From IMG/VR virus record IMGVR_UViG_2711768031_000001: a DNA stretch of 12,100 nt; one strand, given 5' to 3'. This DNA comes from a virus. Its lineage: Duplodnaviria; Heunggongvirae; Uroviricota; Caudoviricetes. Of the stretch, positions 1,369-12,100 are shown piece by piece (the first letter of the stretch is position 1; the number at the start of each line of letters is the position of its first letter). Below the pieces are notes generated by a model. That model saw only the letters and a list, made by a program, of their open reading frames with translations, did no database searches and was not told the DNA's origin. The translations under genes and the position numbers were made by a program.

Positions 1369-1444
1369 GCCGATATAGCTCAGTTGGTAGAGCAGCGCAT
1401 TCGTAATGCGAAGGTCGTAGGTTCGACTCCTATTATCGGCACCA
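1369..1444 (+). tRNA. thrW: tRNA-Thr (anticodon CGT), 76 nt with encoded CCA
   Basis: Sequence GCCGATATAGCTCAGTTGGTAGAGCAGCGCATTCGTAATGCGAAGGTCGTAGGTTCGACTCCTATTATCGGCACCA has a 7-bp acceptor stem (GCCGATA/TATCGGC), D-loop AGCTCAGTTGGTAGAGC, anticodon loop TTCGTAATG and T-arm GGTTCGACTCC. It matches E. coli thrW as recalled. Confidence 0.95.
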
Positions 1445-1458
1445 TTTAAATCAATAAG

Positions 1459-2622
1459 TTACACATCATTAGTACCTTCCTTATTTTTTGACTGGGACAA
1501 ATTTGGGACCGATGGGTTCAGAATCGAGTCTATTTGCCGTGCGTGTTCGGTAAGGTGATTAGGCGCGAGGTGAGCATATCGACGAACCATTTCGATAGAC
1601 TCCCAGCCACCCATTTCCTGTAACACTGACAACGGGACTCCGGCTTGAACCAGCCAACTTGCCCAGGTGTGTCTCAAGTCGTGAAATCTGAAATCATCAA
1701 TACCAGCTCGTCTCAGCGCCGCTTTCCAGGCTGTGTTTGCGTCATACCGCATCTTCCTTACTGTTGGCGCTTTCGTTCCGTCTGGTTTGGTACAGCTTTC
1801 CTTGTACACAAATACCCAACGGTGATGATTCCCGATTTGTTTTTTCAAAACGCGACATGCAGTATCATTCAGCGCAACGCCGATTGCGCGGTTTGATTTA
1901 CTCTCTTCCGGGTTTATCCATGCCACCCGGCGCTGCATATCTATTTGTTGCCATTCAAGGTTGATGATGTTCGAGCGTCTTAAACCTGTTGCCAGTGCAA
2001 ATTCAACAACAGACTTTAATGGCTCCGGACATTCATCAATCAGCCTTTGTGCTTCATGGGGCTCCAGCCAGCGGATCCGTTTATTCTTTGGTTGAGGCAC
2101 TTTAATAATTGGTGCCTTATCCAGCATTTTCCATTCACGCTCTGCGGCTCTTAGTAGGGCCTTTATAAATGAAAGATGCGTAGCCTTCGTTGCAACGGAC
2201 GCTGGTTTTGGCGTGTATTCTGGAACAGGTTTCCCTTTTTTTCTGCATGCTTCTGCCCTGAGTTTCCAGTTTTCCTCATGACGCCGGTTCGTCATTTTCT
2301 GCATTGCTGAATAAATTTTTGATTCAGTAATGTCTCTTAGTTGCATTCCTGCGAAATGTTGAAGCCAGAATCCGATCCGGCTTTTGTCATCGTCCAGTGA
2401 TTTTTTATGTGCTTTCTCTTCGAGCCACCTGATACACGCCTCCTCGAACGTCATATCAGGTATTTCACCAAGTTTGCTGACCCGCCATGCTTCAGCCTTT
2501 AGCTTGTCATGGAGCTCTGTCGCCTGCCTTTTGTCCTTTGTTCCAAGAGACTGTTTAAATCTTTTACCGTTCGGCAATGTGAAACTGGCGTACCATATTT
2601 CACTTCTGCGGAAGAGTGACAT
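1459..2622 (-). CDS. int: tyrosine site-specific integrase, P22-type
   Basis: 387-aa ORF ([33 protein letters not shown] ... [11 protein letters not shown] ... RRYAHL) closely resembling the P22 integrase as recalled, including the C-terminal catalytic R/H-x-x-R/Y region. Shine-Dalgarno GAGGAAAG lies about 6 nt upstream of the ATG at 2622. The stop is 14 nt from the 3' end of thrW, the known P22 attB. Confidence 0.93.
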
Positions 2623-2849
2623 TTTCTTTCCTCTGTTATGCCATCACCCGCGCTCACCTTGATAGTATGCAGCGGAGACTGAAGCGCCGCAATGCAGGCT
2701 TGTCGCGTTGTGAGGTAAGGAGATTTTGGTTTAGTGGGGTCTTTGCGTGTTGCCTGTAGGCGGCCTGTTCGTATCCAGTTGGTGGCGGTTGGTCTGGATA
2801 TCTTAAGAAACTGACAGGCCTCATCGAGTGTGAGGCTGTATGATTCCAT
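2499..2849 (-). CDS. xis: excisionase, P22 Xis-like with HTH
   Basis: ORF track gives 2499-2879 from a GTG; the first ATG at 2849 gives a 116-aa protein ([32 protein letters not shown]...). It sits immediately upstream of and overlapping int, has an excisionase-type helix-turn-helix near the N-terminus, and resembles P22 Xis as recalled. Confidence 0.8.
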
Positions 2850-3099
2850 GGTTACCTCTGCTTTTTGAACGCATGTCACGTAACTTCTTAATGTGTTCTG
2901 CCGTTTCGATCTCTTCTGCTATCCGATCTGCATCAGCTTTATTCACAGGTTCAAAGTCATGATTAAAGCGGAACATGCTGGCGATACATGTTCTGCCTTT
3001 TCGGATGTAGTGAACTTTGTTGTGGGTAGAACGCAGGATTTTGCAGGGAGTGCCGTGGTGGTCGACGTACCAGGTGTTAGGAAAAATGATTCTGAACAT
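2821..3099 (-). CDS. hypothetical early-left accessory protein (92 aa)
   Basis: ORF with ATG at 3099 preceded by GAGGTG about 6 nt upstream; its stop overlaps the xis start by about 29 nt in the same transcriptional direction. No motif recognised. Confidence 0.5.
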   Translation of the reverse strand: MFRIIFPNTWYVDHHGTPCKILRSTHNKVHYIRKGRTCIASMFRFNHDFEPVNKADADRIAEEIETAEHIKKLRDMRSKSRGNHGIIQPHTR

Positions 3100-3146
3100 T
3101 TTTACACCTCAGTTGGACGATGTTGAAATTTGCTGCTTTGAGGCCA

Positions 3147-3365
3147 TCACAATCCCCATTGTTTGTTCTTAAGTTCGATCTCCTCCTGGCAACTTGCACA
3201 AGTCCGACAACCCTGAACGGCCAGGCGTCTTCGTTCATCTATGGGATCGCCACACTTACAACAATGAGTGGCAGATATAGCCTGGTGGTTCAGACGACGC
3301 ATTTTTATTGCTGTATTGCGCTGTAATTCTTCGATTTCTGATGCTGAATCAATGATGTCTGCCAT
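3147..3365 (-). CDS. TraR/DksA-family C4 zinc-finger protein (72 aa)
   Basis: Translation contains CCKCGDPIDERRRLAVQGCRTCASCQ, a CxxC-x17-CxxC arrangement typical of the DksA/TraR zinc finger, in a protein of the small phage-encoded TraR-like size. Confidence 0.7.
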   Translation of the reverse strand: MADIIDSASEIEELQRNTAIKMRRLNHQAISATHCCKCGDPIDERRRLAVQGCRTCASCQEEIELKNKQWGL

Positions 3366-3418
3366 CTTCCATTAATCCCTGAATTGTTGGTTAATACGCT
3401 TGAGGATGAATGCGAACA

Positions 3419-3443
3419 ATAAAAAAGGAGCCTGTAGCTCCCT
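3419..3443 (-). terminator. candidate intrinsic terminator on the minus strand inside the early-left operon
   Basis: On the minus strand: GGAGC-TACAG-GCTCC stem-loop (plus coordinates 3427-3441) immediately followed by TTTTTT (plus A-run 3421-3426), located between the stop of the upstream small ORF (3464) and the TraR-like gene. Confidence 0.4.
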
Positions 3444-3463
3444 GATGATTTTGCTTTTCATGT

Positions 3464-3745
3464 TCACCGTTCCTTAAAGACGCCGTTTAACATGCCGATC
3501 GCCAGGCTTAAATGAGTCGGTGTGAATCCCATCAGCGTTACCGTTTCGCGGTGCTTCTTTAGTACGCTACGGCAAATGTCATCGACGTTTTTATCCGGAA
3601 ACTGCTGTCTGGCTTTTTTGATTTCAGAATTAGCCTGACGGGCAATGCTGCGAAGGGCGTTTTCCTGCTGAGGTGTCATTGAACAAGTCCCATGTCGGCA
3701 AGCATAAGCACACAGAATATGAAGCCCGCTGCCAGAAAAATGCAT
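3464..3745 (-). CDS. hypothetical small protein; start ambiguous (ATG at 3745 or 3679; ORF track begins at TTG 3778)
   Basis: Open frame ending with a stop at 3464. The ATG at 3745 is 11 nt downstream of the methyltransferase stop; the alternative ATG at 3679 gives a 71-aa product (MTPQQENALRSIARQ...). No strong Shine-Dalgarno for either. Confidence 0.4.
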   Translation of the reverse strand: MHFSGSGLHILCAYACRHGTCSMTPQQENALRSIARQANSEIKKARQQFPDKNVDDICRSVLKKHRETVTLMGFTPTHLSLAIGMLNGVFKER

Positions 3746-3755
3746 TCCGTGGTTG

Positions 3756-4313
3756 TCATGCAGCCTCCCGACGGGCAAGAATCCTTGAGCCGAACGCCAT
3801 CAACTCTCCACGATCAACGGTCGTAAAGTGGCAGTGTGTACGGGGGTATGGGTGCCAGATAATGAGCATCGAGCCTTTATTATTTCCACTGACGGGTTTC
3901 TCAGTGAGTGGGTTAATAAATGCCAGTCGTCCTGCCGTGATGAATCTGACCTCACTGGCGGTTTGTATCGCTTCATGAAACCATCCGACAGATGTGTCAG
4001 CAGGCAATAACATTACACATCCCACACTACTGAATTTGTTTTCAGTGGCTGCCTTTTTCACAAAAGGGGAAATATTGCTGTATGGTGGATTCAACCAGAC
4101 ATAACCAGAGGCATATCCCATTGCTTCAGGCCATGAAGTGGTTAATGTGTTCTGCTCCTGTGAGATAAAAAGCCGACATAGTCGGTTTTTTTCGCTGGCG
4201 GCAGCATCAAGTTGAAAAACGAACTCTGCATTAAGCGCAGCAAAAATCTCTGGTGGTGTGCGCCAGCTGTCGCGATGTTCGGCAGGAGTATTGCTTCCGG
4301 TGAAATCAGTCAT
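3756..4313 (-). CDS. phage-type DNA N6-adenine methyltransferase (Dam-like, NPPY motif)
   Basis: 185-aa ORF with GGGGAG Shine-Dalgarno about 5 nt upstream of the ATG at 4313. It contains WLNPPYS, the catalytic (D/N)PPY motif of N6-adenine methyltransferases, and is the size of the small phage Dam family. Confidence 0.8.
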   Translation of the reverse strand: MTDFTGSNTPAEHRDSWRTPPEIFAALNAEFVFQLDAAASEKNRLCRLFISQEQNTLTTSWPEAMGYASGYVWLNPPYSNISPFVKKAATENKFSSVGCVMLLPADTSVGWFHEAIQTASEVRFITAGRLAFINPLTEKPVSGNNKGSMLIIWHPYPRTHCHFTTVDRGELMAFGSRILARREAA

Positions 4314-4354
4314 ACAGCTCCCCGTTTATTATTTATCTCCTCAGCCAGCCGCTG

Positions 4355-4468
4355 TGCTTTCAGGGGATTTCGGATAACAGAAAGGCCGGGAAATACCCAG
4401 CCTCGCTTCGTAACGGAGTAGACGAAAGTGATCGTGCCTACGCGGATATTATCGTGAGGATGTTTCAT
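4355..4468 (-). CDS. small ORF (37 aa) translationally coupled to exo; possible truncated lambda orf60a-like gene
   Basis: Hand translation gives [37 protein letters not shown]. Its ATG (4466-4468) overlaps the exo stop (4465-4467) in an ATGA arrangement. Resemblance to a lambda small ORF downstream of exo is only a vague recollection. Confidence 0.3.
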
Positions 4469-5145
4469 CGCCATTGCTCCCCAAATACAAAACCAATTTC
4501 AGCCAGTGCCTCGTCCATTTTTTCGATGAACTCCGGCACCATCTCGTCAAAACTCGCTATATACTTTTCATCCCGCTCAACCACGACATAATGCAGGCCT
4601 TCACGCTTCATACGCGGGTCATAGTTGGCAAAGTACCAGGCATCTTTTCGCGTCACCCACATGCTGTACTGCACCTGGGCCATGTAAGCCGACTTTATGG
4701 CCTCGAAACCACCGAGCCGGAACTTCATGAAATCCCGGGAGGTAAACGGGCATTTCAGCTCAAGACCATTGCCGTCACTGCATAAACCATCGGGAGAGCA
4801 GGCGGTGCGCATACTTTCGTCGCGATAGATGATCGGGGATTCAGTAACATTCACGCCGGAAGTGAATTCAAACAGGGTTCTGGCGTCGTTCTCGTACTGT
4901 TTTCCCCAGGCCAGCGCTTTAGCATTAACTTCCGGAGCCACACCGGTGCAAACCTCAGCCAGCAGGGTGTGGAAGTAGGACATTTTCATGTCAGGCCACT
5001 TCTTTCCTGAGCGGGGCTTTGCTATCACGTTGTGAACTTCTGAAGCGGTGATGACGCCGAGCCGTAATTTGTGCCATGCATCATCCCCCTGTTCGACAGC
5101 TCTCACGTCGATCCCGGTACGCTGCAGGATAATGTCCGGTGTCAT
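4465..5145 (-). CDS. exo: lambda-type 5'-3' exonuclease (Red alpha)
   Basis: 226-aa translation ([65 protein letters not shown] ... FGEQWR) is near-identical to lambda Exo as recalled. Start overlaps the bet stop. Confidence 0.95.
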
Positions 5146-5927
5146 GCTGCCACCTTCTGCTCAGTGGCTTTCTGTTTCAGGAATCCAAGAGCTTTTACTG
5201 CTTCGGCCTGTGTCAGTTCTGACGATGCACGAATGTTGCGGCGAAATATCTGGGAACAGAGCGGCAATAAGTCGTCATCCCATGTTTTATCCAGGGCGAT
5301 CAGCAGAGTGTTAATCTCCTGCATGGTTTCATCGTTAACCGGAGTGATGTCGCGTTCCGGCTGACGTTCTGCAGTGTATGCGGTATTTTCGACAATGCGC
5401 TCGGCTTCATCCTTGTCATAGATACCAGCAAATCCGAAGGCCAGACGGGCACACTGAATCATGGCTTTATGACGTAACATCCGTTTGGGATGCGACTGCC
5501 ACGGCCCCGTGATTTCTCTGCCTTCGCGAGTTTTGAATGGTTCGCGGCGGCATTCATCCATCCACTCGGTAACGCAGATCGGATGATTGCGGTCTTTGCG
5601 GTAAATCCGGCATGTGCAGGATTCATTGTCCTGCTCAAAGTCCATGCCATCAAACTGCTGGTTTTCATTGATGATGCGGGACCAGCCATCAACGCCCACC
5701 ACCGGAACGATGCCATTCTGCTTATCAGGGAAGGCGTAAATTTCTTTCGTCCACGGATTAAGGCCGTACTGGTTGGCGACGATCAACAATGCGATGAACT
5801 GCGCATCGCTGGCATCACCTTTAAATGCCGTCTGGCGAAGAGTGGTGATCAGTTCCTGTGGGTCGACAGAATCCATGCCGACACGTTCAGCCAGCTTCCC
5901 TGCCAGCGTTGCGAGTGCTGTACTCAT
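5142..5927 (-). CDS. bet: lambda-type single-strand annealing protein (Red beta)
   Basis: 261-aa translation ([66 protein letters not shown]...) is near-identical to lambda Bet as recalled. Confidence 0.95.
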
Positions 5928-5932
5928 CCGTT

Positions 5933-6229
5933 TTATACCTCTGAATCAATATCAACCTGGTGGTGAGCAATGGTTTCAACCATGTACCGGATGTGTTCTG
6001 CCATGCGCTCCTGAAACTCAACATCGTCATCAAACGCACGGGTAATGGCTTTTTTGCTGGCCCCGTGGCGTTGCAAATGATCGATGCATAGCGATTCAAA
6101 CAGGTGCTGGGGCAGGCCTTTTTCCATGTCGTCTGCCAGTTCTGTCTCTTTCTCTTCACGGGCGATCTGCTGGTAGTGACGCGCCCAGCTCTGAGCCTCA
6201 AGACGATCCTGAATGTAATAAGCGTTCAT
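5933..6229 (-). CDS. gam: Gam, host RecBCD inhibitor (98-aa short form)
   Basis: Translation [60 protein letters not shown] ... [10 protein letters not shown] matches the lambda GamS sequence as recalled. The upstream in-frame region has no ATG before a stop, so only the short form can be made. Confidence 0.9.
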
Positions 6230-6304
6230 GGCTGAACTCCTGAAAATGGCTGTGAAAAAATCGCCCGCGGAATGCCAGGCTGATTCGGAAAACAGGAAAG
6301 GGGA

Positions 6305-6463
6305 TTAGTGATTCAGACCGTTGCCGCGTCCGTCGAGAAAAACTTCCACGAGCAAGTCACGGGTATAAGTGCGCTCAATGCCGCGATGCAGATAAAGTCG
6401 TCCGCGTAAATTAGCTGATGCAGTCCAGGTACCATCTTTGTGTTTGACCAGCATTCCTGGCAT
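6305..6463 (-). CDS. Kil-position small protein (52 aa from ATG 6463; alternative 68 aa from ATG 6511); function not established
   Basis: Open frame ending 75 nt upstream of the gam start. ATG at 6463 is preceded by GAGGTG at 7 nt; ATG at 6511 is preceded by AGGAG at about 6 nt. The Kil assignment rests on position relative to gam only; I cannot confirm sequence similarity. Confidence 0.45.
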   Translation of the reverse strand: MPGMLVKHKDGTWTASANLRGRLYLHRGIERTYTRDLLVEVFLDGRGNGLNH

Positions 6464-6476
6464 GACCGCACCTCGA

Positions 6477-6716
6477 TTAACGGTCTGCGTTCCGTAATGT
6501 TGATGAACCATAAAAAACTCCTGCCCGTAAGCTGGGCTGCTGAACATATTGAGACTTCTGCGCGTATTCAGGCGGTGGATGGCCGCCGGTTGTCATAACT
6601 AAGTCGCCTCGTTGAAGCGACTGAGGTATGAAGTGTTGAGTTGATTTCAGCTGGTCACACCGACGTTCACGCGTCCGTTTCACCCCTCGCACTCCCCGGA
6701 GCCTGCTGAAATTCAA
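6477..6716 (-). CDS. candidate N-like antiterminator with arginine-rich N-terminus (low confidence; non-ATG start)
   Basis: First ORF downstream of the putative pL. Frame opens at TTG 6716 with possible GTG starts at 6692 and 6683, the latter 8 nt after GGGGAG. The N-terminus (RLRGVRGVKRTRERRCDQLKS) resembles the arginine-rich RNA-binding motif of lambda N (QTRRRERRAEKQAQW). Stop at 6477-6479 lies just upstream of the Kil-position ORF. Confidence 0.3.
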   Translation of the reverse strand: MNFSRLRGVRGVKRTRERRCDQLKSTQHFIPQSLQRGDLVMTTGGHPPPEYAQKSQYVQQPSLRAGVFYGSSTLRNADR

Positions 6717-6789
6717 GCTGCGGATCTAAGCGGTCATCGCAACGGTGAATCAGGTGGTTGCCGTATCGTTGTGTTGTTGCGATATGGTG

Positions 6790-6840
6790 ATAATAGCTAT
6801 TGCTATTGGTGATATCAATACTTATTGCTATTAGTTGATG
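6790..6840 (-). promoter_or_regulatory. candidate pL promoter with OL operators
   Basis: On the minus strand: -35 TTGATA (plus 6813-6818), 17-bp spacer, -10 TATTAT (plus 6790-6795). Two copies of TATTGCTATT on the plus strand (heptamer TTGCTAT at 6800-6806 and 6825-6831, 25 bp apart) mirror the same motif pair in the cI-cro intergenic region. Confidence 0.4.
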
Positions 6841-6965
6841 TGTTTTGATATTAAATGTTTGATAGCAAAAAGAATTAATTTTGTGACTTGAATCGCATAG
6901 CGATAACTGAAGCGAGGTTATGGTGGTTTTTTTAACGGTGTGTGTGATGAGGGGAGGGCAAAAGA

Positions 6966-6994
6966 AAACCCGGCACGGTGGCCGGGGGCTTTTT
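6966..6994. terminator. bidirectional intrinsic terminator downstream of the 304-aa gene
   Basis: Stem CCCGGC (6969-6974), loop ACGGTG, stem GCCGGG (6981-6986). On the minus strand the stem is followed directly by TTTTCTTTT; on the plus strand by GGCTTTTTAT. It lies 25-50 nt beyond the stop (7019) of the 304-aa ORF. Confidence 0.6.
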
Positions 6995-7018
6995 ATAGTG
7001 TGTTAGGTAAATAGAATA

Positions 7019-7933
7019 TCAGCCTACTGTTCTAAAGATGAGAAGTGGTGTCATCCCATACGAATCACTTCCTCTACCAGCTTGTACCTTGACCATATCC
7101 AGGAAGGATTGTAATCCTGACTTGAGATCGTGTTCAGGGAAATCAGGGTTATTGATATTCTGATCTTGTACAGAATCTGGCAAGGCATCAATCAATCCAA
7201 TGACATGCCAGGTACCCGGTATGGTGCCACCATATTTTAAGGCTAAGTCATCAGGATTAATTGTTAAATATTCTTTATCAATAGACATCCACATCAGGTT
7301 GCCATTCTCATCAATAAAATCAACCTGGAGGATGTTGGGAACGATATTAATGAGTTTCTTAACTACACCAATGGTAAGCCCTGGAGATATCTCAATTTCA
7401 TCTGGGGTGAGTTTCCCTTTAAGCTTCGCTTTGGCTTTTGGGGGAAGGTTGACCGTGTTTAATTGTGCTTGGGCTATCTCACCAAAAATAGGCATAATTT
7501 TCTGAATAGTTGACACATCAAAAATGCGCATTTTTCCAACAGAATGAACAACTGAACCAAGATTCTCACCATTAAGTCCAGTTTTAATCATTCCTGCTTC
7601 ATCTAATTTATCGAGAAAATTAATTGGTAATGACCATGAAGCGTCGAAAGTTTTCTCTTGCGAATGTGTTAAGGTGTCGTCAGTCCCCACTTTTCCTTTA
7701 AGAATCTTGACGCTTAATTCAACGGATTTATTAGATTTATCTGTGTCAGAAGTAGTTTGTTTTACGCTCGTCACTACACCAGCATTGTGAAGCTGGGCTG
7801 TGAGGGAGCTAACGCGTACACGGTCTATGTAAAGAAAATCAAATAGTGAATCTGTGCTTTGTTGTTCGAGCTCCATTTTGCCAATCCTCTCTAAATTTTT
7901 CTTTTTCCTCGCGAATTCTTTTTTGCTTTTCAT
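7019..7933 (-). CDS. hypothetical protein of unknown function (304 aa; alternative start ATG 7876 gives 285 aa) at the rexAB-equivalent position; candidate phage-exclusion protein
   Basis: Long uninterrupted ORF in visibly AT-rich DNA between the cI stop and the putative OL/pL, on the same strand as cI. AGAGG lies about 9 nt upstream of the ATG at 7876. No catalytic or nucleotide-binding motif recognised by eye. A strong terminator follows. Confidence 0.7.
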   Translation of the reverse strand: MKSKKEFARKKKNLERIGKMELEQQSTDSLFDFLYIDRVRVSSLTAQLHNAGVVTSVKQTTSDTDKSNKSVELSVKILKGKVGTDDTLTHSQEKTFDASWSLPINFLDKLDEAGMIKTGLNGENLGSVVHSVGKMRIFDVSTIQKIMPIFGEIAQAQLNTVNLPPKAKAKLKGKLTPDEIEISPGLTIGVVKKLINIVPNILQVDFIDENGNLMWMSIDKEYLTINPDDLALKYGGTIPGTWHVIGLIDALPDSVQDQNINNPDFPEHDLKSGLQSFLDMVKVQAGRGSDSYGMTPLLIFRTVG

Positions 7934-8018
7934 CTATCTCATCGAAAAGTTGAATGAGTTCATCCACACCATGTGAAGGCGTCTCTGATTTCACTTTCTT
8001 CAAAATTTTCTTGAACAT
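7839..8018 (-). CDS. small highly charged ORF (59 aa) upstream of and overlapping the 304-aa gene
   Basis: First ATG at 8018 gives MFKKILKKVKSETPSHGVDELIQLFDEIDEKQKRIREEKEKFREDWQNGARTTKHRFTI, which is Lys/Glu-rich. The 3' end overlaps the start of the large ORF in another frame. The ORF-track extension to 8096 uses a TTG and would cover the candidate promoter. Confidence 0.35.
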   Translation of the reverse strand: MFKKILKKVKSETPSHGVDELIQLFDEIDEKQKRIREEKEKFREDWQNGARTTKHRFTI

Positions 8019-8049
8019 GATGATTTTCCATAGAGAACTGACTGTACAA

Positions 8050-8078
8050 ATTATGTTCTCTTTGTCACATGAAAGCAA
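8050..8078 (-). promoter_or_regulatory. candidate sigma70 promoter for the accessory two-gene insert
   Basis: On the minus strand: -35 TTGCTT (plus 8073-8078), 17-bp spacer, -10 CATAAT (plus 8050-8055), about 30 nt upstream of the small-ORF ATG at 8018 and downstream of the cI stop. Confidence 0.3.
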
Positions 8079-8167
8079 CTGTACCAGGACAAGCAAAGTG
8101 TGTCTCCAAAGATCGCTTTAATCACATGTTACAGCTTTTTTGTCAGCTTTGGTCCCATGAAGACGCT

Positions 8168-8860
8168 TTACCCATGCTTCCTGTATGTCTGCGGCATGCT
8201 CCCAATAACCTTACCGAAGATGAACACCCGGTTCATCTCGTCTTTCTCGATCGGGTCCCACGGTGAGTAGCTTTTGTTATCAGAGATGACCAGCAGCTTA
8301 TCCTTCATCATTTGCAGGCGCTTTACATGGGCTGTGTCGTCGTACAGAAACGCATAGATACCATCACCGTCGAAAGATTTAACTGTGATATCAACGAACA
8401 GCAGATCACCTGGTTCGATCGTTCCTGACATGCTGTCACCACGCACGTTAATGATGCGGATATTTTCCGCCTTCCTGCCATCGAACATGTGACGAGCATC
8501 GTCAAACGAGTACTCAACCGAGCGTAGAACTTCTACAAACTCACGGTTGATTACACCCGGCCCGGCACTGACTTCTATATCAAGAACGTCAATCTTGAAG
8601 TATTTTGAATGGCTGACAGCAGGCTTCCCTGATTGTTGACCGTCATTTCTCATCGGGCCTATGCCTGATGAGAGCCATTCTGTTCGAACACCCAATGCAT
8701 TAGCTATTTCAACAATTTTTGTTGAGCCGCGCGCGTTGCCGCTTGTCAGTCTCCAGATTGTGGGTTGAGCTACGCCAGACGCCTTTGCAAGAGCGCCTTG
8801 AGACATTCCAGATTGTTCCATCGCTAGGTTTAAGCGATCAGCAAGAGTTTCTTTTTTCAT
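8168..8860 (-). CDS. cI: CI-type prophage repressor (N-terminal XRE helix-turn-helix, C-terminal S24 LexA-like autopeptidase)
   Basis: From ATG 8860: MKKETLADRLNLAMEQSGMSQGALAKASGVAQPTIWRL (helix-turn-helix), a candidate Ala-Gly cleavage site in EVSAGPG, Ser nucleophile in VRGDSMSGTIEPGDLLFVD and Lys in HVKRL. The ATG at 8860 has no Shine-Dalgarno and sits 10 nt after a TATAAA -10, consistent with a near-leaderless pRM transcript. The ORF-track start at 8896 is probably too long. Confidence 0.88.
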   Translation of the reverse strand: MKKETLADRLNLAMEQSGMSQGALAKASGVAQPTIWRLTSGNARGSTKIVEIANALGVRTEWLSSGIGPMRNDGQQSGKPAVSHSKYFKIDVLDIEVSAGPGVINREFVEVLRSVEYSFDDARHMFDGRKAENIRIINVRGDSMSGTIEPGDLLFVDITVKSFDGDGIYAFLYDDTAHVKRLQMMKDKLLVISDNKSYSPWDPIEKDEMNRVFIFGKVIGSMPQTYRKHG

Positions 8861-8970
8861 AAGTTTTAATTTATACGCTTGCGTATTGATGGTCAAAACA
8901 CGTTTTGCTATTGCTTGGATTAATACGCATTGCTATTATTCATTCATTGCAATACCAATAGGAATTGATA
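8861..8970. promoter_or_regulatory. OR region: divergent pRM/pR promoters with operator motifs
   Basis: pR on the plus strand: -35 TTGCTT 8911-8916, 17-bp spacer, -10 TATTAT 8934-8939. pRM on the minus strand: -35 TTGACC at about 8890-8895 and -10 TATAAA at about 8870-8875. Perfect 14-bp palindromes ATACGCTTGCGTAT (8873-8886) and CAAAACACGTTTTG (8894-8907). TTGCTAT heptamers at 8905-8911 and 8930-8936, 25 bp apart as in the OL region. Confidence 0.55.
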
Positions 8971-9198
8971 ATGACAAATCAAACCATTCAACTCGCAATC
9001 AGTATTACAGGTAGTCAAAAACGACTGGCAGATCTATGCGGTGTAGCCCAACCCACAGTTTGGCGTTGGCTACACGGTGGCGGAATTGATGCCCGCTATG
9101 TAATGAAAATTGTCTCAGCCACTGGTGGAAAGATTAAACCAGCAGATATTCGTCCCGACCTCGCACCATTGTTTAACGCGAGTAATTCTGCCGCCTAA
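8971..9198 (+). CDS. Cro-like helix-turn-helix regulator of the YdaS family
   Basis: ATG at 8971 (ORF track begins at TTG 8965). Translation MTNQTIQLAISITGSQKRLADLCGVAQPTVWRWLHGG ... KIVSATGGKIKPADIRPDLAPLF follows the YdaS pattern of Rac prophage as recalled. Divergent from cI across the operator region. Confidence 0.8.
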   Translation: MTNQTIQLAISITGSQKRLADLCGVAQPTVWRWLHGGGIDARYVMKIVSATGGKIKPADIRPDLAPLFNASNSAA

Positions 9199-9222
9199 AC
9201 TGCGGCGTTAACTGATAAGGCA

Positions 9223-9768
9223 ATGACTATGCAACCACTTACATACCAACAGACTAGCGGATTTAGCCCGACTGCGGTGATAAATCGTTCTCAAACAAAA
9301 CAGGCGCCAGGCCACGAAAAAATCCGTGATGCCGTTCGCGCCTGGTCGGCTGCAGATAATCAGGATGTTGTTGCCGCACTCATTGTGAATGAGTATCGGG
9401 AGCAGGGCGGCGGCACCATCGATTTCCCTGATGATGTCAGCCGTGCACGCCAGAAGCTGTTCCGCTTCCTCGATAACAAATTCGATTCTGAAAAATACCG
9501 AAATAACGTGCGTGAACTGACCCCGGCAATTCTGGCGGTACTACCGCTGGAATATCGCGGCCACCTGGTTGAGCAGGATAGCTACATGGCTCGGCTGGCT
9601 GAAATGGAAAAGGAACTCAGTGAGGCAAAACAGGCTGTCATTCTCAACGCACCACGCCACCAGAAACTGAAGGAAATTAGTGAAGGTATTGTGTCGATGT
9701 TTCGTGTGGACCCAGATCTGGCTGGTCCACTGATGGCGATGGTCACCACCATGCTGGGGGCAATATGA
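9223..9768 (+). CDS. YdaT-like protein at the CII position (181 aa; alternative start ATG 9229)
   Basis: Translation contains EYREQGGGTIDFPDD ... LTPAILAVLPLEYRGHL, resembling the EEYLRQGGG ... LIPAILAILPRELRHRL region of Rac YdaT as recalled. It immediately follows the YdaS-like gene. Confidence 0.7.
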   Translation: MTMQPLTYQQTSGFSPTAVINRSQTKQAPGHEKIRDAVRAWSAADNQDVVAALIVNEYREQGGGTIDFPDDVSRARQKLFRFLDNKFDSEKYRNNVRELTPAILAVLPLEYRGHLVEQDSYMARLAEMEKELSEAKQAVILNAPRHQKLKEISEGIVSMFRVDPDLAGPLMAMVTTMLGAI

Positions 9769-9854
9769 CAGGTTCAGAAATGGCGAAAGCCGGTCTGCTG
9801 GAACAGAACCGACTTTCAGGTGCAAATCGTAACACACTCATTGCGGGAGGAATT

Positions 9855-10784
9855 ATGGCAAACACTGCTGAGATATTCAATTTTCCAGTGCCGGATGTGG
9901 CACAAAAGGAGCCGCGTGTGGCAGATCTCGATGATGGTTATACGCGCATTGCAAATGAGTTGCTGGAAGCTGTGATGCTGGCCGGATTAACACAGCACCA
10001 GCTTCTGGTCTTCCTGGCTGTCATGCGCAAAACATATGGCTTTAATAAAAAACTGGATTGGGTGAGCAACGAGCAACTTTCCGAGTTGACCGGGATATTG
10101 CCGCACAAGTGTTCTGCTGCAAAAAGTGTTCTGGTAAAGCGTGGGATTTTTATTCAGAGCGGGCGGAATATCGGCATTAATAATGTGGTCAGTGAATGGT
10201 CAACATTACCCGAATCAGGTAAGAAAAATAAAGTTTACCTGAAAGAGGTAAATTTACCTGAATCAGGTAAGAAAAGTTTACCCAAATCAGGTAAAGGCGT
10301 TTACCCGAATCAGGTAAACACAAAAGACAAACTAACAAAAGACAATATAAAACCTTTTTCGTCCGAGAATTCTGGCGAATCCTCTGACCAGCCAGAAAAC
10401 GATCTTCCTGTGGTGAAACCGGATGCTGCAATTCAGAGCGGCAGCAAGTGGGGGACAGCAGAAGACCTGACCGCCGCAGAGTGGATGTTTGACATGGTGA
10501 AGACCATCGCGCCATCAGCCAGAAAACCGAATTTTGCAGGGTGGGCTAACGATATCCGCCTGATGCGTGAACGTGACGGACGTAACCACCGCGACATGTG
10601 TGTACTGTTCCGCTGGGCATGCCAGGACAACTTCTGGTCCGGTAACGTGCTGAGTCCGGCCAAACTCCGCGACAAGTGGACCCAGCTCGAAATCAACCGA
10701 AACAAGCAACAGGCTGGCGTGACAGCCGGCAAACCAAAACTCGACCTGACGAACACTGACTGGATTTACGGGGTGGAGCTATGA
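9855..10784 (+). CDS. O: replication initiator O (lambda-type C-terminal domain, divergent N-terminal iteron-binding domain)
   Basis: ATG at 9855 preceded by GGGAGG. The C-terminal two-thirds (YSSENSGESSDQPENDL ... DLTNTDWIYGVEL) is near-identical to lambda O as recalled; the N-terminal third is related but clearly diverged. The ORF-track start at 9765 overlaps the upstream gene and lacks a ribosome-binding site. Confidence 0.93.
   Translation: MANTAEIFNFPVPDVAQKEPRVADLDDGYTRIANELLEAVMLAGLTQHQLLVFLAVMRKTYGFNKKLDWVSNEQLSELTGILPHKCSAAKSVLVKRGIFIQSGRNIGINNVVSEWSTLPESGKKNKVYLKEVNLPESGKKSLPKSGKGVYPNQVNTKDKLTKDNIKPFSSENSGESSDQPENDLPVVKPDAAIQSGSKWGTAEDLTAAEWMFDMVKTIAPSARKPNFAGWANDIRLMRERDGRNHRDMCVLFRWACQDNFWSGNVLSPAKLRDKWTQLEINRNKQQAGVTAGKPKLDLTNTDWIYGVEL
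10206..10360. repeat. ori-lambda-type replication origin inside O: iteron array plus AT-rich region
   Basis: Four near-identical 17-bp iterons, each an inverted repeat TTACC(C/T)(G/A)AATCAGGTAA, at 10206-10222, 10254-10270, 10278-10294 and 10301-10317, plus a degenerate copy TTTACCTGAAAGAGGTAAA at 10233-10252, followed by an A-rich stretch (ACACAAAAGACAAACTAACAAAAGACAATATAAAAC). Confidence 0.8.
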
Positions 10785-11482
10785 AAAACATCGCCGCACA
10801 GATGGTTAACTTTGACCGTGAGCAGATGCGTCGGATCGCCAACAACATGCCGGAACAGTACGACGAAAAGCCGCAGGTACAGCAGGTAGCGCAGATCATC
10901 AATGGTGTGTTCAGCCAGTTACTGGCAACTTTCCCGGCGAGCCTGGCTAACCGGGATCAGAACGAACTGAACGAAATCCGCCGCCAGTGGGTTCTGGCTT
11001 TCCGGGAAAACGGGATCACCACGATGGAACAGGTTAACGCAGGAATGCGCGTAGCCCGTCGGCAGAATCGACCATTCCTGCCATCACCCGGGCAGTTTGT
11101 CGCCTGGTGCCGGGAAGAAGCATCTGTTAACGCCGGGCTGCCAAACGTCAGCGAGCTGGTTGATATGGTTTACGAGTATTGCCGGAAGCGTGGCCTGTAT
11201 CCGGATGCAGAGTCTTATCCGTGGAAATCGAACGCGCATTACTGGTTGGTTACCAACTTGTACCAGAACATGCGGGCCAATGCGCTGGCTGACGCGGAAT
11301 TACGGCGCAAGGCTGCCGATGAACTGACCTGTATGACAGCGCGAATTAACCGTGGTGAGACGATACCTGAACCAGTAAAACAACTTCCTGTTATGGGCGG
11401 TAGACCTCTAAATCGTGCACAGGCTCTGGCGAAGATCGCAGAAATTAAAGCTAAGTTCGGACTGAAAGGAGCAAGTGTATGA
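10781..11482 (+). CDS. P: replication protein P (DnaB helicase loader)
   Basis: 233-aa translation (MKNIAAQMVNFDREQMRRIANNMPEQYDEKPQVQQVAQIINGVFSQLLATFPASLANRDQNE...) is near-identical to lambda P as recalled. The start overlaps the O stop. Confidence 0.95.
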   Translation: MKNIAAQMVNFDREQMRRIANNMPEQYDEKPQVQQVAQIINGVFSQLLATFPASLANRDQNELNEIRRQWVLAFRENGITTMEQVNAGMRVARRQNRPFLPSPGQFVAWCREEASVNAGLPNVSELVDMVYEYCRKRGLYPDAESYPWKSNAHYWLVTNLYQNMRANALADAELRRKAADELTCMTARINRGETIPEPVKQLPVMGGRPLNRAQALAKIAEIKAKFGLKGASV

Positions 11483-11781
11483 CGGGCAAAGAGGCAATTA
11501 TTCATTACCTGGGGACGCATAAGAGCTTCTGTGCACAGGACGTTGCCGCGGTAACAGGCGCAACCGTAACCAGCATAAATCAGGCTGCGGCTAAAATGGC
11601 GCGGGCAGGAATCCTGGTCGTTGATGGTAAGGTCTGGCGAACGGTGTATTACCGGTTCGCTACCAGAGAAGAATGGGAAGGAAAGGTGAGCACGAATCTG
11701 ATTTTTAAGGAGTGTCGCCAGAGTGCCGCGATGAAACGGGTATTGAGGGTATATAAAAGAACATCAATGGGAACACAATGA
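11479..11781 (+). CDS. ren: Ren (Rex-exclusion resistance protein)
   Basis: 100-aa translation (MTGKEAIIHYLGTHKSFCAQDVAAVTGATVTSINQAAAKMARAGILVVDGKVWRTVYYRFATRE...) matches lambda Ren as recalled. The start overlaps the P stop in an ATGA arrangement. Confidence 0.9.
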   Translation: MTGKEAIIHYLGTHKSFCAQDVAAVTGATVTSINQAAAKMARAGILVVDGKVWRTVYYRFATREEWEGKVSTNLIFKECRQSAAMKRVLRVYKRTSMGTQ

Positions 11782-11848
11782 TGAAACAGGTGAGTTGAGT
11801 TCAAACTGTAGTACAATTCTCTCCAGTTTGAACAGGAAAGAATATGCT

Positions 11849-12079
11849 ATGAACCCTTATATTTATCTTGGTGGTGCAATACTTGCAGAGGTCATTGGTA
11901 CAACCTTAATGAAGTTTTCAGAAGGTTTTACACGGTTATGGCCATCTGTTGGTACAATTATTTGTTATTGTGCATCATTCTGGTTATTAGCTCAGACGCT
12001 GGCTTATATTCCTACAGGGATTGCTTATGCTATCTGGTCAGGAGTCGGTATTGTCCTGATTAGCTTACTGTCATGGGGA
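11849..12079 (+). pseudogene. emrE: emrE (small multidrug resistance transporter), truncated after codon 77 by an IS2 end
   Basis: Hand translation from ATG 11849 gives MNPYIYLGGAILAEVIGTTLMKFSEGFTRLWPSVGTIICYCASFWLLAQTLAYIPTGIAYAIWSGVGIVLISLLSWG, matching E. coli EmrE as recalled. After SWG the reading frame continues as WICPYIS rather than the expected FFGQRLDL, coinciding with the IS2 terminal repeat. Confidence 0.8.
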
Positions 12080-12100
12080 TGGATTTGCCCCTATATTTCC
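12080..12100. mobile_element. terminal inverted repeat of IS2 (first 21 nt of the element; remainder outside the window)
   Basis: TGGATTTGCCCCTATATTTCC matches the IS2 terminal inverted repeat as I recall it (TGGATTTGCCCCTATATTTCCAGACA...). It begins exactly where the emrE reading frame departs from the EmrE sequence. Confidence 0.6.

What the first reader, a model, noticed from the sequence alone, without database searches (positions are those of the whole stretch)
11849..12100. emrE in the prophage appears interrupted by an IS2 insertion
The EmrE reading frame matches through codon 77 (ending SWG) and then diverges exactly where the sequence becomes TGGATTTGCCCCTATATTTCC, which I recognise as the IS2 terminal inverted repeat. 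This would inactivate the transporter. Only 21 nt of the element are inside the window, so the call rests on a short match.
Basis: partly seen in the sequence, partly recalled or inferred. Interest (0 to 1): 0.45.

Follow-up and report, generated by a model that had tools for sequence, protein, structure and literature searches.

The report
emrE gene broken by IS2
A small drug-efflux pump gene (emrE) carried on an E. coli prophage is cut at codon 77 by the end of the common insertion sequence IS2; this is an ordinary gene-killing event already annotated in a few public genomes.

Summary
The ORF starting at 11849 is identical to E. coli EmrE for codons 1-77 (11849-12079). The last 21 nt (12080-12100) are exactly the right-end terminal inverted repeat of IS2.

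Three complete RefSeq E. coli genomes share an identical 501-nt junction. In each, it leads into a complete 1331-bp IS2 with its transposase antiparallel to emrE. The IS2 is flanked by a 5-bp duplication, GGGGA, and followed by the rest of emrE. PGAP already annotates both emrE halves there as partial pseudogenes.

The 21-mer is a reliable marker. Of 89 occurrences in species-representative genomes, 86 lie at the end of IS2 or an IS2-family element or remnant.

The truncation removes TM4, the dimerisation helix, so the transporter should be inactive.

What cannot be shown from the window is that the element beyond 12100 is complete and that the 3' part of emrE follows. I put that at about 0.8.

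The emrE::IS2 segment (11042-12100) is a DLP12-type patch. It is recombined, within gene P, into a thrW-integrated lambdoid prophage that otherwise lacks emrE in its closest relatives.

This is ordinary and of low interest.

The parts
11849..12079 (+). 5' part of emrE, codons 1-77 (TM1-TM3, including Glu14)
   Evidence: 100% identical to K-12/DLP12 emrE. Identical to PDB EmrE residues 1-77. PF00893 at E=1.5e-28, truncated at model position 75 of 93.
12075..12079 (.). GGGGA, the IS2 target site (left copy of the expected 5-bp target-site duplication)
   Evidence: In L001, L014, L015 and L016 the IS2 is flanked by GGGGA on both sides. GGGGA occurs once in intact emrE, at nt 227-231.
12080..12100 (-). 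Outermost 21 nt of the IS2 right inverted repeat (IRR). The element is oriented with its transposase genes antiparallel to emrE.
   Evidence: Exact match to the IS2 end next to the transposase 3' end in L001, L006, L011 and others. Of 89 occurrences in species-representative genomes, 86 are ends of IS2 or IS2-family elements or remnants.
11042..12100 (+). DLP12-type patch (3' two-thirds of gene P, ren, emrE'::IS2) recombined into the thrW prophage
   Evidence: 0 mismatches to the DLP12 loci L001, L004, L006, L007 and L011 from 11042 onward. 0 mismatches to the thrW prophages L003 and L030 up to 11100, then 37 mismatches up to 11745.
11479..11781 (+). ren gene, immediately upstream of emrE
   Evidence: ORF list. 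Annotated 'protein ren' in K-12-type genomes under the match.
1369..1444 (+). tRNA-Thr (CGU), thrW, the prophage integration site next to proA
   Evidence: ARAGORN. Annotation of the co-linear loci L002 and L003.
1459..2622 (-). Prophage integrase, marking the left end of the lambdoid prophage that carries emrE
   Evidence: 387-aa ORF. Annotated as a tyrosine recombinase/integrase in the co-linear loci.

Best explanation
An IS2 element (IS3 family) has transposed into emrE at the pentanucleotide GGGGA (emrE nt 227-231). It is oriented with its right inverted repeat toward the emrE start and its transposase genes antiparallel to emrE.

The emrE ORF now encodes residues 1-77 (TM1-TM3). By analogy with identical junctions elsewhere, it then reads 28 hydrophilic codons into IS2 before a stop. 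The 33 native C-terminal residues are lost: loop 3, the TM4 dimerisation helix and the C-terminal tail. The product should not form the antiparallel dimer, so this copy is a pseudogene.

The insertion most likely happened once, in a DLP12-type ren-emrE module. It then reached this thrW prophage by homologous recombination inside gene P.

Shown: identity of the emrE 5' part, identity of the IS2 end, the structure of identical junctions in other genomes, and the recombination breakpoint. Inferred: completeness of IS2 beyond 12100, presence of the emrE 3' part, and loss of function.
For: emrE is 100% identical up to 12079/12080 and then diverges.

The 21-mer is the IS2 terminus and is not expected by chance.

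Three complete genomes have the same 501-nt junction. There it leads to a 1331-bp IS2 with a GGGGA duplication and the emrE 3' end, and all copies are identical. That element has a 121-aa orfA, an A6G slippery site at nt 409, orfB in the -1 frame and imperfect terminal repeats.

The exact 105-aa fusion ORF (P0001) was found on 20 contigs read in public assemblies.

Of 89 occurrences of the 21-mer in GTDB representatives, 71 are followed by sequence at least 90% identical to IS2. Nine are full-length IS2-family relatives and six are truncated IS2 remnants.

TM4 is the dimerisation domain, with Gly90, Ile94 and Gly97 functionally critical (PMC6599891). The replacement tail is hydrophilic, mean Kyte-Doolittle -0.69 against +1.08 for the native C-terminus.

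The recombination breakpoint lies between 11041 and 11101.
Against: Only 21 nt of the element are in the window.

The exact combination of thrW prophage plus emrE::IS2 was not found in any collection, so nothing beyond 12100 could be read for this genome.

About 7 of 87 assessable occurrences of the 21-mer are truncated remnants. Of 46 full-length IS2 copies in IS-rich genomes, 17 lack matching 5-bp flanks, which indicates secondary rearrangements.

Loss of function has not been tested. Other emrE copies may exist in the genome (DLP12 at argU, or a fliE-adjacent paralogue) and could mask any phenotype.
Confidence: 0.85

Rival explanations
1. The 21 nt belong to an IS2 remnant, or to an IS2 that has since mediated a deletion, an inversion or recombination with another IS2 copy. 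In that case the 3' part of emrE is not on the other side. emrE is still disrupted, but not by a simple intact insertion.
For: Six of the 21-mer occurrences in species representatives are followed by only 41-234 nt of IS2, and one by nothing recognisable. 17 of 46 full-length copies lack identical 5-bp flanks. The locus already shows one recombination event about 1 kb upstream.
Against: All four complete-genome loci read through the identical junction (L001, L014, L015, L016, from three strains) have the complete element, the duplication and the emrE 3' part. The longest metagenome contig with the junction (L018) runs 1006 nt into IS2.
Confidence: 0.1
2. This is an assembly artefact. The join between the thrW prophage and the DLP12-type P-ren-emrE::IS2 segment would be a chimeric contig, formed across the near-identical P genes of two prophages in one genome. 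The real emrE::IS2 would then lie in DLP12 at argU.
For: The three complete genomes with this junction have it in DLP12 at argU. One of them (Br_178_kylling) also has a thrW prophage without emrE. The short metagenome contigs L020-L022 show similar switches between emrE paralogues at varying points.
Against: Some thrW prophages do carry ren-emrE: NH-21 (L002) and CUPS04 (H39). The metagenome scaffold L018 also shows a full O-P-ren-emrE::IS2 arrangement. Lambdoid prophages are known to be mosaic through such exchanges (general knowledge). Either way emrE is interrupted by IS2.
Confidence: 0.04
3. The match to IS2 is a chance resemblance, and the ORF continues into an alternative functional C-terminus.
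For: None beyond the shortness of the match.
Against: It is an exact 21/21 match beginning at the precise terminus of IS2, with no chance expectation. Identical junctions elsewhere run into IS2, and the ORF stops after 28 hydrophilic codons.
Confidence: 0.01

Closest known systems
emrE::IS2 pseudogene in the DLP12 prophage of E. coli LD27-1 (NZ_CP047594), YZ22MPE54 (NZ_CP139337) and Br_178_kylling (NZ_CP182383)
   Same: The sequence is identical from window 11042 to 12100, including the junction. The insertion site (GGGGA, after codon 77) and the IS2 orientation are the same. PGAP annotates a partial EmrE, an IS2 transposase and then a partial SMR transporter.
   Different: In those genomes the locus is DLP12 at argU, with an exo'-'P deletion. 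Here the segment is joined, within gene P, to a complete early region of a lambdoid prophage integrated at thrW next to proA.
Intact emrE (b0543) of the E. coli K-12 DLP12 prophage
   Same: 100% nucleotide identity for ren, the intergenic region and emrE codons 1-77.
   Different: K-12 continues with TTTTTCGGC... and encodes a 110-aa protein with TM4. The window switches to IS2.
Other IS2 insertions in emrE in public assemblies
   Same: The element and orientation are the same. One insertion follows codon 49 in DLP12 emrE (L034, GCA_003009265). Another follows codon 83 in the fliE-adjacent emrE paralogue (L033).
   Different: The insertion positions and target pentamers differ, so these are independent events.
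IS2-mediated gene disruption or activation at other efflux loci (acrR::IS2, and IS2 upstream of acrEF)
   Same: The element is the same, and 5-bp duplications are reported there as well (PMC9783932).
   Different: Those events raise efflux, either by inactivating a repressor or by supplying a promoter. Here the pump gene itself is broken.

Membership tests
EmrE / small multidrug resistance (SMR) family, PF00893 | Sequence match to the SMR profile and to EmrE itself | tested here: met
   PF00893 at E=1.5e-28. Residues 1-77 are identical to PDB 3b5d EmrE.
EmrE / small multidrug resistance (SMR) family, PF00893 | Complete four-helix protein of about 110 aa, including the TM4 dimerisation helix (G90/G97 motif) | tested here: not met
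   The frame leaves EmrE after residue 77, and the Pfam match stops at model position 75 of 93. By sequence it is therefore an emrE pseudogene, not a functional member.
EmrE / small multidrug resistance (SMR) family, PF00893 | Essential membrane-embedded Glu14 in TM1 | tested here: met
   MNPYIYLGGAILAEV has E at position 14.
IS2 (IS3 family insertion sequence) | Terminal inverted repeat sequence at the element end | tested here: met
   21/21 identity to the IRR terminus of annotated IS2 copies. 86 of 89 occurrences in GTDB representatives are IS2-family ends.
IS2 (IS3 family insertion sequence) | A 1331-bp element with orfA and orfB (HTH and rve DDE domains) joined by a -1 frameshift at A6G | not testable with these tools
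   This lies outside the window. It is met in the identical-junction loci L001, L014, L015 and L016.
IS2 (IS3 family insertion sequence) | 5-bp target-site duplication flanking the element | not testable with these tools
   Only the left copy (GGGGA, 12075-12079) is in the window. Both copies are present in L001, L014, L015 and L016.
   tRNA-Thr at 1369-1444. The window is co-linear with annotated prophages carrying int, exo, bet, gam, kil, a cI-like gene, O, P and ren.

The most novel reading that the evidence does not exclude
emrE may be a recurrent, possibly selected, target of IS2. At least three independent insertion positions (after codons 49, 77 and 83) exist in public assemblies, all in the same orientation. 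The codon-77 allele appears in several genomic contexts. Because EmrE can sensitise cells to some compounds, its loss might be adaptive. The allele might also spread between prophages by recombination, with a defective prophage (DLP12) donating an IS-carrying module to a prophage at another site.
Probability: 0.1. Interest if true: 0.3.

Novelty: already known. Interest (0 to 1): 0.1.

Why it matters
It matters little beyond correct annotation. This copy of emrE should be called a pseudogene, and it should not count as a resistance determinant in resistome screens, which often score emrE by partial matches. The recombination breakpoint in gene P is a clear example of a DLP12-type module, IS2 included, moving into another lambdoid prophage. 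That is a known kind of mosaicism.

Tried and rejected
1. I looked for the source genome so as to read past 12100, without success.
- The whole-window megablast against 5,426 complete E. coli genomes gave no full-length match. The best hit was the 13TMH22 thrW prophage, which lacks emrE.
- The exact 38-nt junction was absent from GTDB species representatives and from JGI metagenome contigs.
- A look-up of the window's P protein was unspecific, because it equals the common DLP12 P.
- A look-up of the DUF6414 protein returned only prophages without emrE.
It worked after a homologue search, but none of the contigs is the source.

2. I considered an IS2 insertion hot spot at GGGGA, because the same junction appears with fliE-type upstream sequence in L020-L022. 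I set this aside. In all of these contigs the last 70 nt or more before the junction are DLP12-type, and the switch points vary. That fits recombination or k-mer assembly chimeras better than independent insertions.

3. A literature search for emrE together with IS2 found nothing specific.

Full report
**Observation**

The window ends with an ORF whose ATG is at 11849. Translating 11849-12100 gives MNPYIYLGGAILAEVIGTTLMKFSEGFTRLWPSVGTIICYCASFWLLAQTLAYIPTGIAYAIWSGVGIVLISLLSWG followed by WICPYIS.

- The first 77 residues are identical to EmrE as deposited in the PDB (3b5d and others). The alignment degrades at residue 78.
- Pfam PF00893 (Small Multidrug Resistance) matches at E=1.5e-28 but covers only model positions 2-75 of 93. 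An intact EmrE covers 2-93.
- At the DNA level, window 11600-12080 is 100% identical to the ren-emrE region of K-12 and many laboratory strains. The match stops at 12080.
- Native emrE continues GGGGA|TTTTTCGGC, whereas the window continues GGGGA|TGGATTTGCC. The T at 12080 is common to both, so sequence alone fixes the breakpoint only to within 1 nt. The canonical IS2 end places it between 12079 and 12080.

**Is the 21-mer really IS2?**

- It occurs once in the window. None are expected in 200 dinucleotide shuffles, even with 3 mismatches allowed.
- Three complete RefSeq genomes match the last 501 nt of the window at 100% over the full length: LD27-1, YZ22MPE54 and Br_178_kylling.
- In all three, PGAP annotates in order a partial EmrE-family transporter (missing its C-terminus), an "IS3-like element IS2 family transposase" with a programmed frameshift on the opposite strand, and a partial SMR transporter (missing its N-terminus).
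- Reading LD27-1 shows an element of exactly 1331 bp. It starts TGGATTTGCCCCTATATTTCC and ends GGGGGCCAGTCTA, is flanked on both sides by GGGGA, and is followed by TTTTTCGGCCAACGG... to the emrE stop. The element and its flanks are identical in all four loci read.
- On its coding strand the element has a 121-aa orfA, an A6G slippery site at nt 409 and orfB in the -1 frame. It has imperfect terminal inverted repeats. The called products carry HTH_Tnp_1, HTH_21, rve and rve_3 domains.
- These are the defining features of IS2 as I know them from the literature: 1331 bp, IS3 family, 5-bp duplication. That description rests on my own knowledge.

To measure how diagnostic 21 nt are, I scanned one genome per GTDB species and found 89 occurrences.

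| What follows the 21-mer | Count |
|---|---|
| At least 90% identical to IS2 over the next 300 nt | 71 |
| Full-length IS2-family relatives, 68-79% identical (Symbiopectobacterium, Scandinavium) | 9 |
| IS2 remnants of 41-234 nt | 6 |
| Nothing recognisable (a Pseudanabaena MAG) | 1 |
| Too close to a contig end to judge | 2 |

The 21-mer therefore marks an IS2-type right end almost without exception. About 8% of such ends are not attached to a complete element. Of 46 full-length copies, 17 lacked matching 5-bp flanks, as expected in IS-rich genomes where IS copies recombine.

**Context**

- The window begins in proA (1-1254), followed by tRNA-Thr(CGU) at 1369-1444 and an integrase on the minus strand (1459-2622).
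- It is co-linear with annotated lambdoid prophages integrated at thrW. These carry xis-like, DUF4222, TraR/DksA, Dam methylase, exo, bet, gam, kil, a variable gene, a cI-like repressor, YdaS/YdaT-like genes, O, P and ren. "emrE in the prophage" is therefore correct.
- The window is a recombinant. Positions 2255-11100 have no mismatch to the thrW prophage of strain 13TMH22, and positions 8001-11100 have none to L030. Both of these prophages then accumulate 37 mismatches up to 11745 and lose similarity altogether; they have no emrE.
- Conversely, DLP12-type loci at argU differ from the window at ten sites between 10778 and 11041 (L004, L006, L007, L011; LD27-1, whose truncated P aligns only from 10876, differs at six). 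They are identical to it from 11042 onward. For LD27-1 the identity runs to 12100, junction included.
- The crossover therefore lies in gene P between 11041 and 11101. The emrE::IS2 allele sits in a DLP12-derived patch of at least 1059 nt.
- Some thrW prophages do carry an intact ren-emrE module: NH-21 (L002) at 97.5% identity and CUPS04 (H39), whose match also runs to 12079. The architecture is not unnatural.

**One event or several?**

- The 105-aa fusion ORF (EmrE 1-77 plus WICPYISRHLLSLNPLQARCRRYSRGER) exists as an exact protein, found on 20 contigs read in public assemblies.
- These contigs include a metagenome scaffold with a full O-P-ren-emrE::IS2 arrangement (L018). It is 98.6% identical to the window and runs 1006 nt into IS2.
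- Three short metagenome contigs (L020-L022) have the same junction but upstream sequence of a different emrE locus, next to fliE. Column-by-column comparison shows they switch from the fliE-type to the DLP12-type allele at different points. All are DLP12-type for at least the last 70 nt before the junction.
- That pattern fits recombination or assembly chimerism better than independent hits at a hot spot.
- Genuinely independent IS2 insertions in emrE do exist. One follows codon 49 in a DLP12 emrE (L034) and one follows codon 83 in the fliE-adjacent paralogue (L033). Both have the same orientation.

**Mechanism and consequence**

- IS2 inserted at GGGGA with its right end toward the emrE start, so the transposase is transcribed antiparallel to emrE.
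- The truncated ORF keeps TM1-TM3, including Glu14. It loses the 33 native C-terminal residues: loop 3, TM4 and the C-terminal tail.
- TM1-3 form the substrate-binding domain and TM4 is the dimerisation domain. Gly90, Ile94 and Gly97 are functionally critical (PMC6599891).
- The replacement tail is hydrophilic and basic, with mean hydropathy -0.69 against +1.08 for the native C-terminus. It cannot substitute for a transmembrane helix.
- Loss of function is therefore a strong inference, but it is untested. Other emrE copies elsewhere in the genome could mask any phenotype.

**What is not shown**

I could not find the source genome. For this genome, the completeness of IS2, the second GGGGA and the emrE 3' remainder are inferred from relatives. 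I put a simple, complete insertion at about 0.8-0.85, an IS2 remnant or IS2-mediated rearrangement at about 0.1, and a chimeric assembly join at about 0.04. In all of these cases emrE is disrupted at codon 77.

**Novelty**

The exact junction is already present, and annotated as a pseudogene plus IS2, in three RefSeq genomes. No paper in the searchable library discusses it. IS disruption of an accessory prophage gene is routine. Interest is low.

Noticed in passing
window 11041-11101 (within gene P, 10781-11482): There is a sharp recombination breakpoint here. Upstream, the window is identical to the thrW prophages of 13TMH22 and L030. Downstream, it is identical to the DLP12-type P-ren-emrE found at argU in other strains. 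The thrW prophage has acquired a DLP12 module, IS2 included.
   Followed up: yes
L020, L021, L022 (ENA metagenome contigs of 766-863 nt): These carry the same emrE::IS2 junction, but their upstream sequence is that of the fliE-adjacent emrE paralogue. They switch to the DLP12-type allele at different points. They are either real paralogue recombination or k-mer assembly chimeras.
   Followed up: partly
L033 (fliE-adjacent emrE) and L034 (DLP12 emrE, GCA_003009265): Two further independent IS2 insertions in emrE, after codon 83 and after codon 49. Both have the same orientation as in the window. Many E. coli also have a second emrE locus next to fliE.
   Followed up: partly
emrE codons 76-79 (window 12074-12079 and the native continuation GGGGATTTTTC); proteins P0003, P0004, P0006, P0010, P0012, P0014, P0019, P0021: Many public EmrE ORFs of 100-101 aa are frameshifted at the G4-A-T5 homopolymer run, the very site of the IS2 duplication. 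These may be homopolymer sequencing errors in long-read assemblies or real frameshift pseudogenes.
   Followed up: no
L036, L062, L069, L110, L108 (genome-contig hits): The IS2 terminal 21-mer occurs on tiny contigs, several labelled as low coverage, assigned to Brevibacterium, Nostoc, Sulfoacidibacillus and Paenisporosarcina. The Paenisporosarcina contig is 1333 nt, matching the length of a single IS2. It also occurs in a Pseudanabaena MAG. This looks like E. coli or cloning-host contamination of those assemblies.
   Followed up: no
window 7019-7876 (-) and the small ORF upstream of it (about 7839-8096, -): The slot between kil and the cI-like repressor holds a DUF6414 protein here. The otherwise co-linear NH-21 prophage has a HipA-family kinase plus a DUF3037 protein in the same slot. 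This is a variable cargo position, possibly defence-related.
   Followed up: no
L001/L014/L015 (LD27-1, YZ22MPE54, Br_178_kylling), DLP12 at argU: All three emrE::IS2 genomes share a DLP12 deletion that fuses a lambda-exonuclease-family gene to a 5'-truncated P gene. This suggests one lineage or one shared DLP12 allele, even though the isolates come from China (feces, pork) and Brazil.
   Followed up: no
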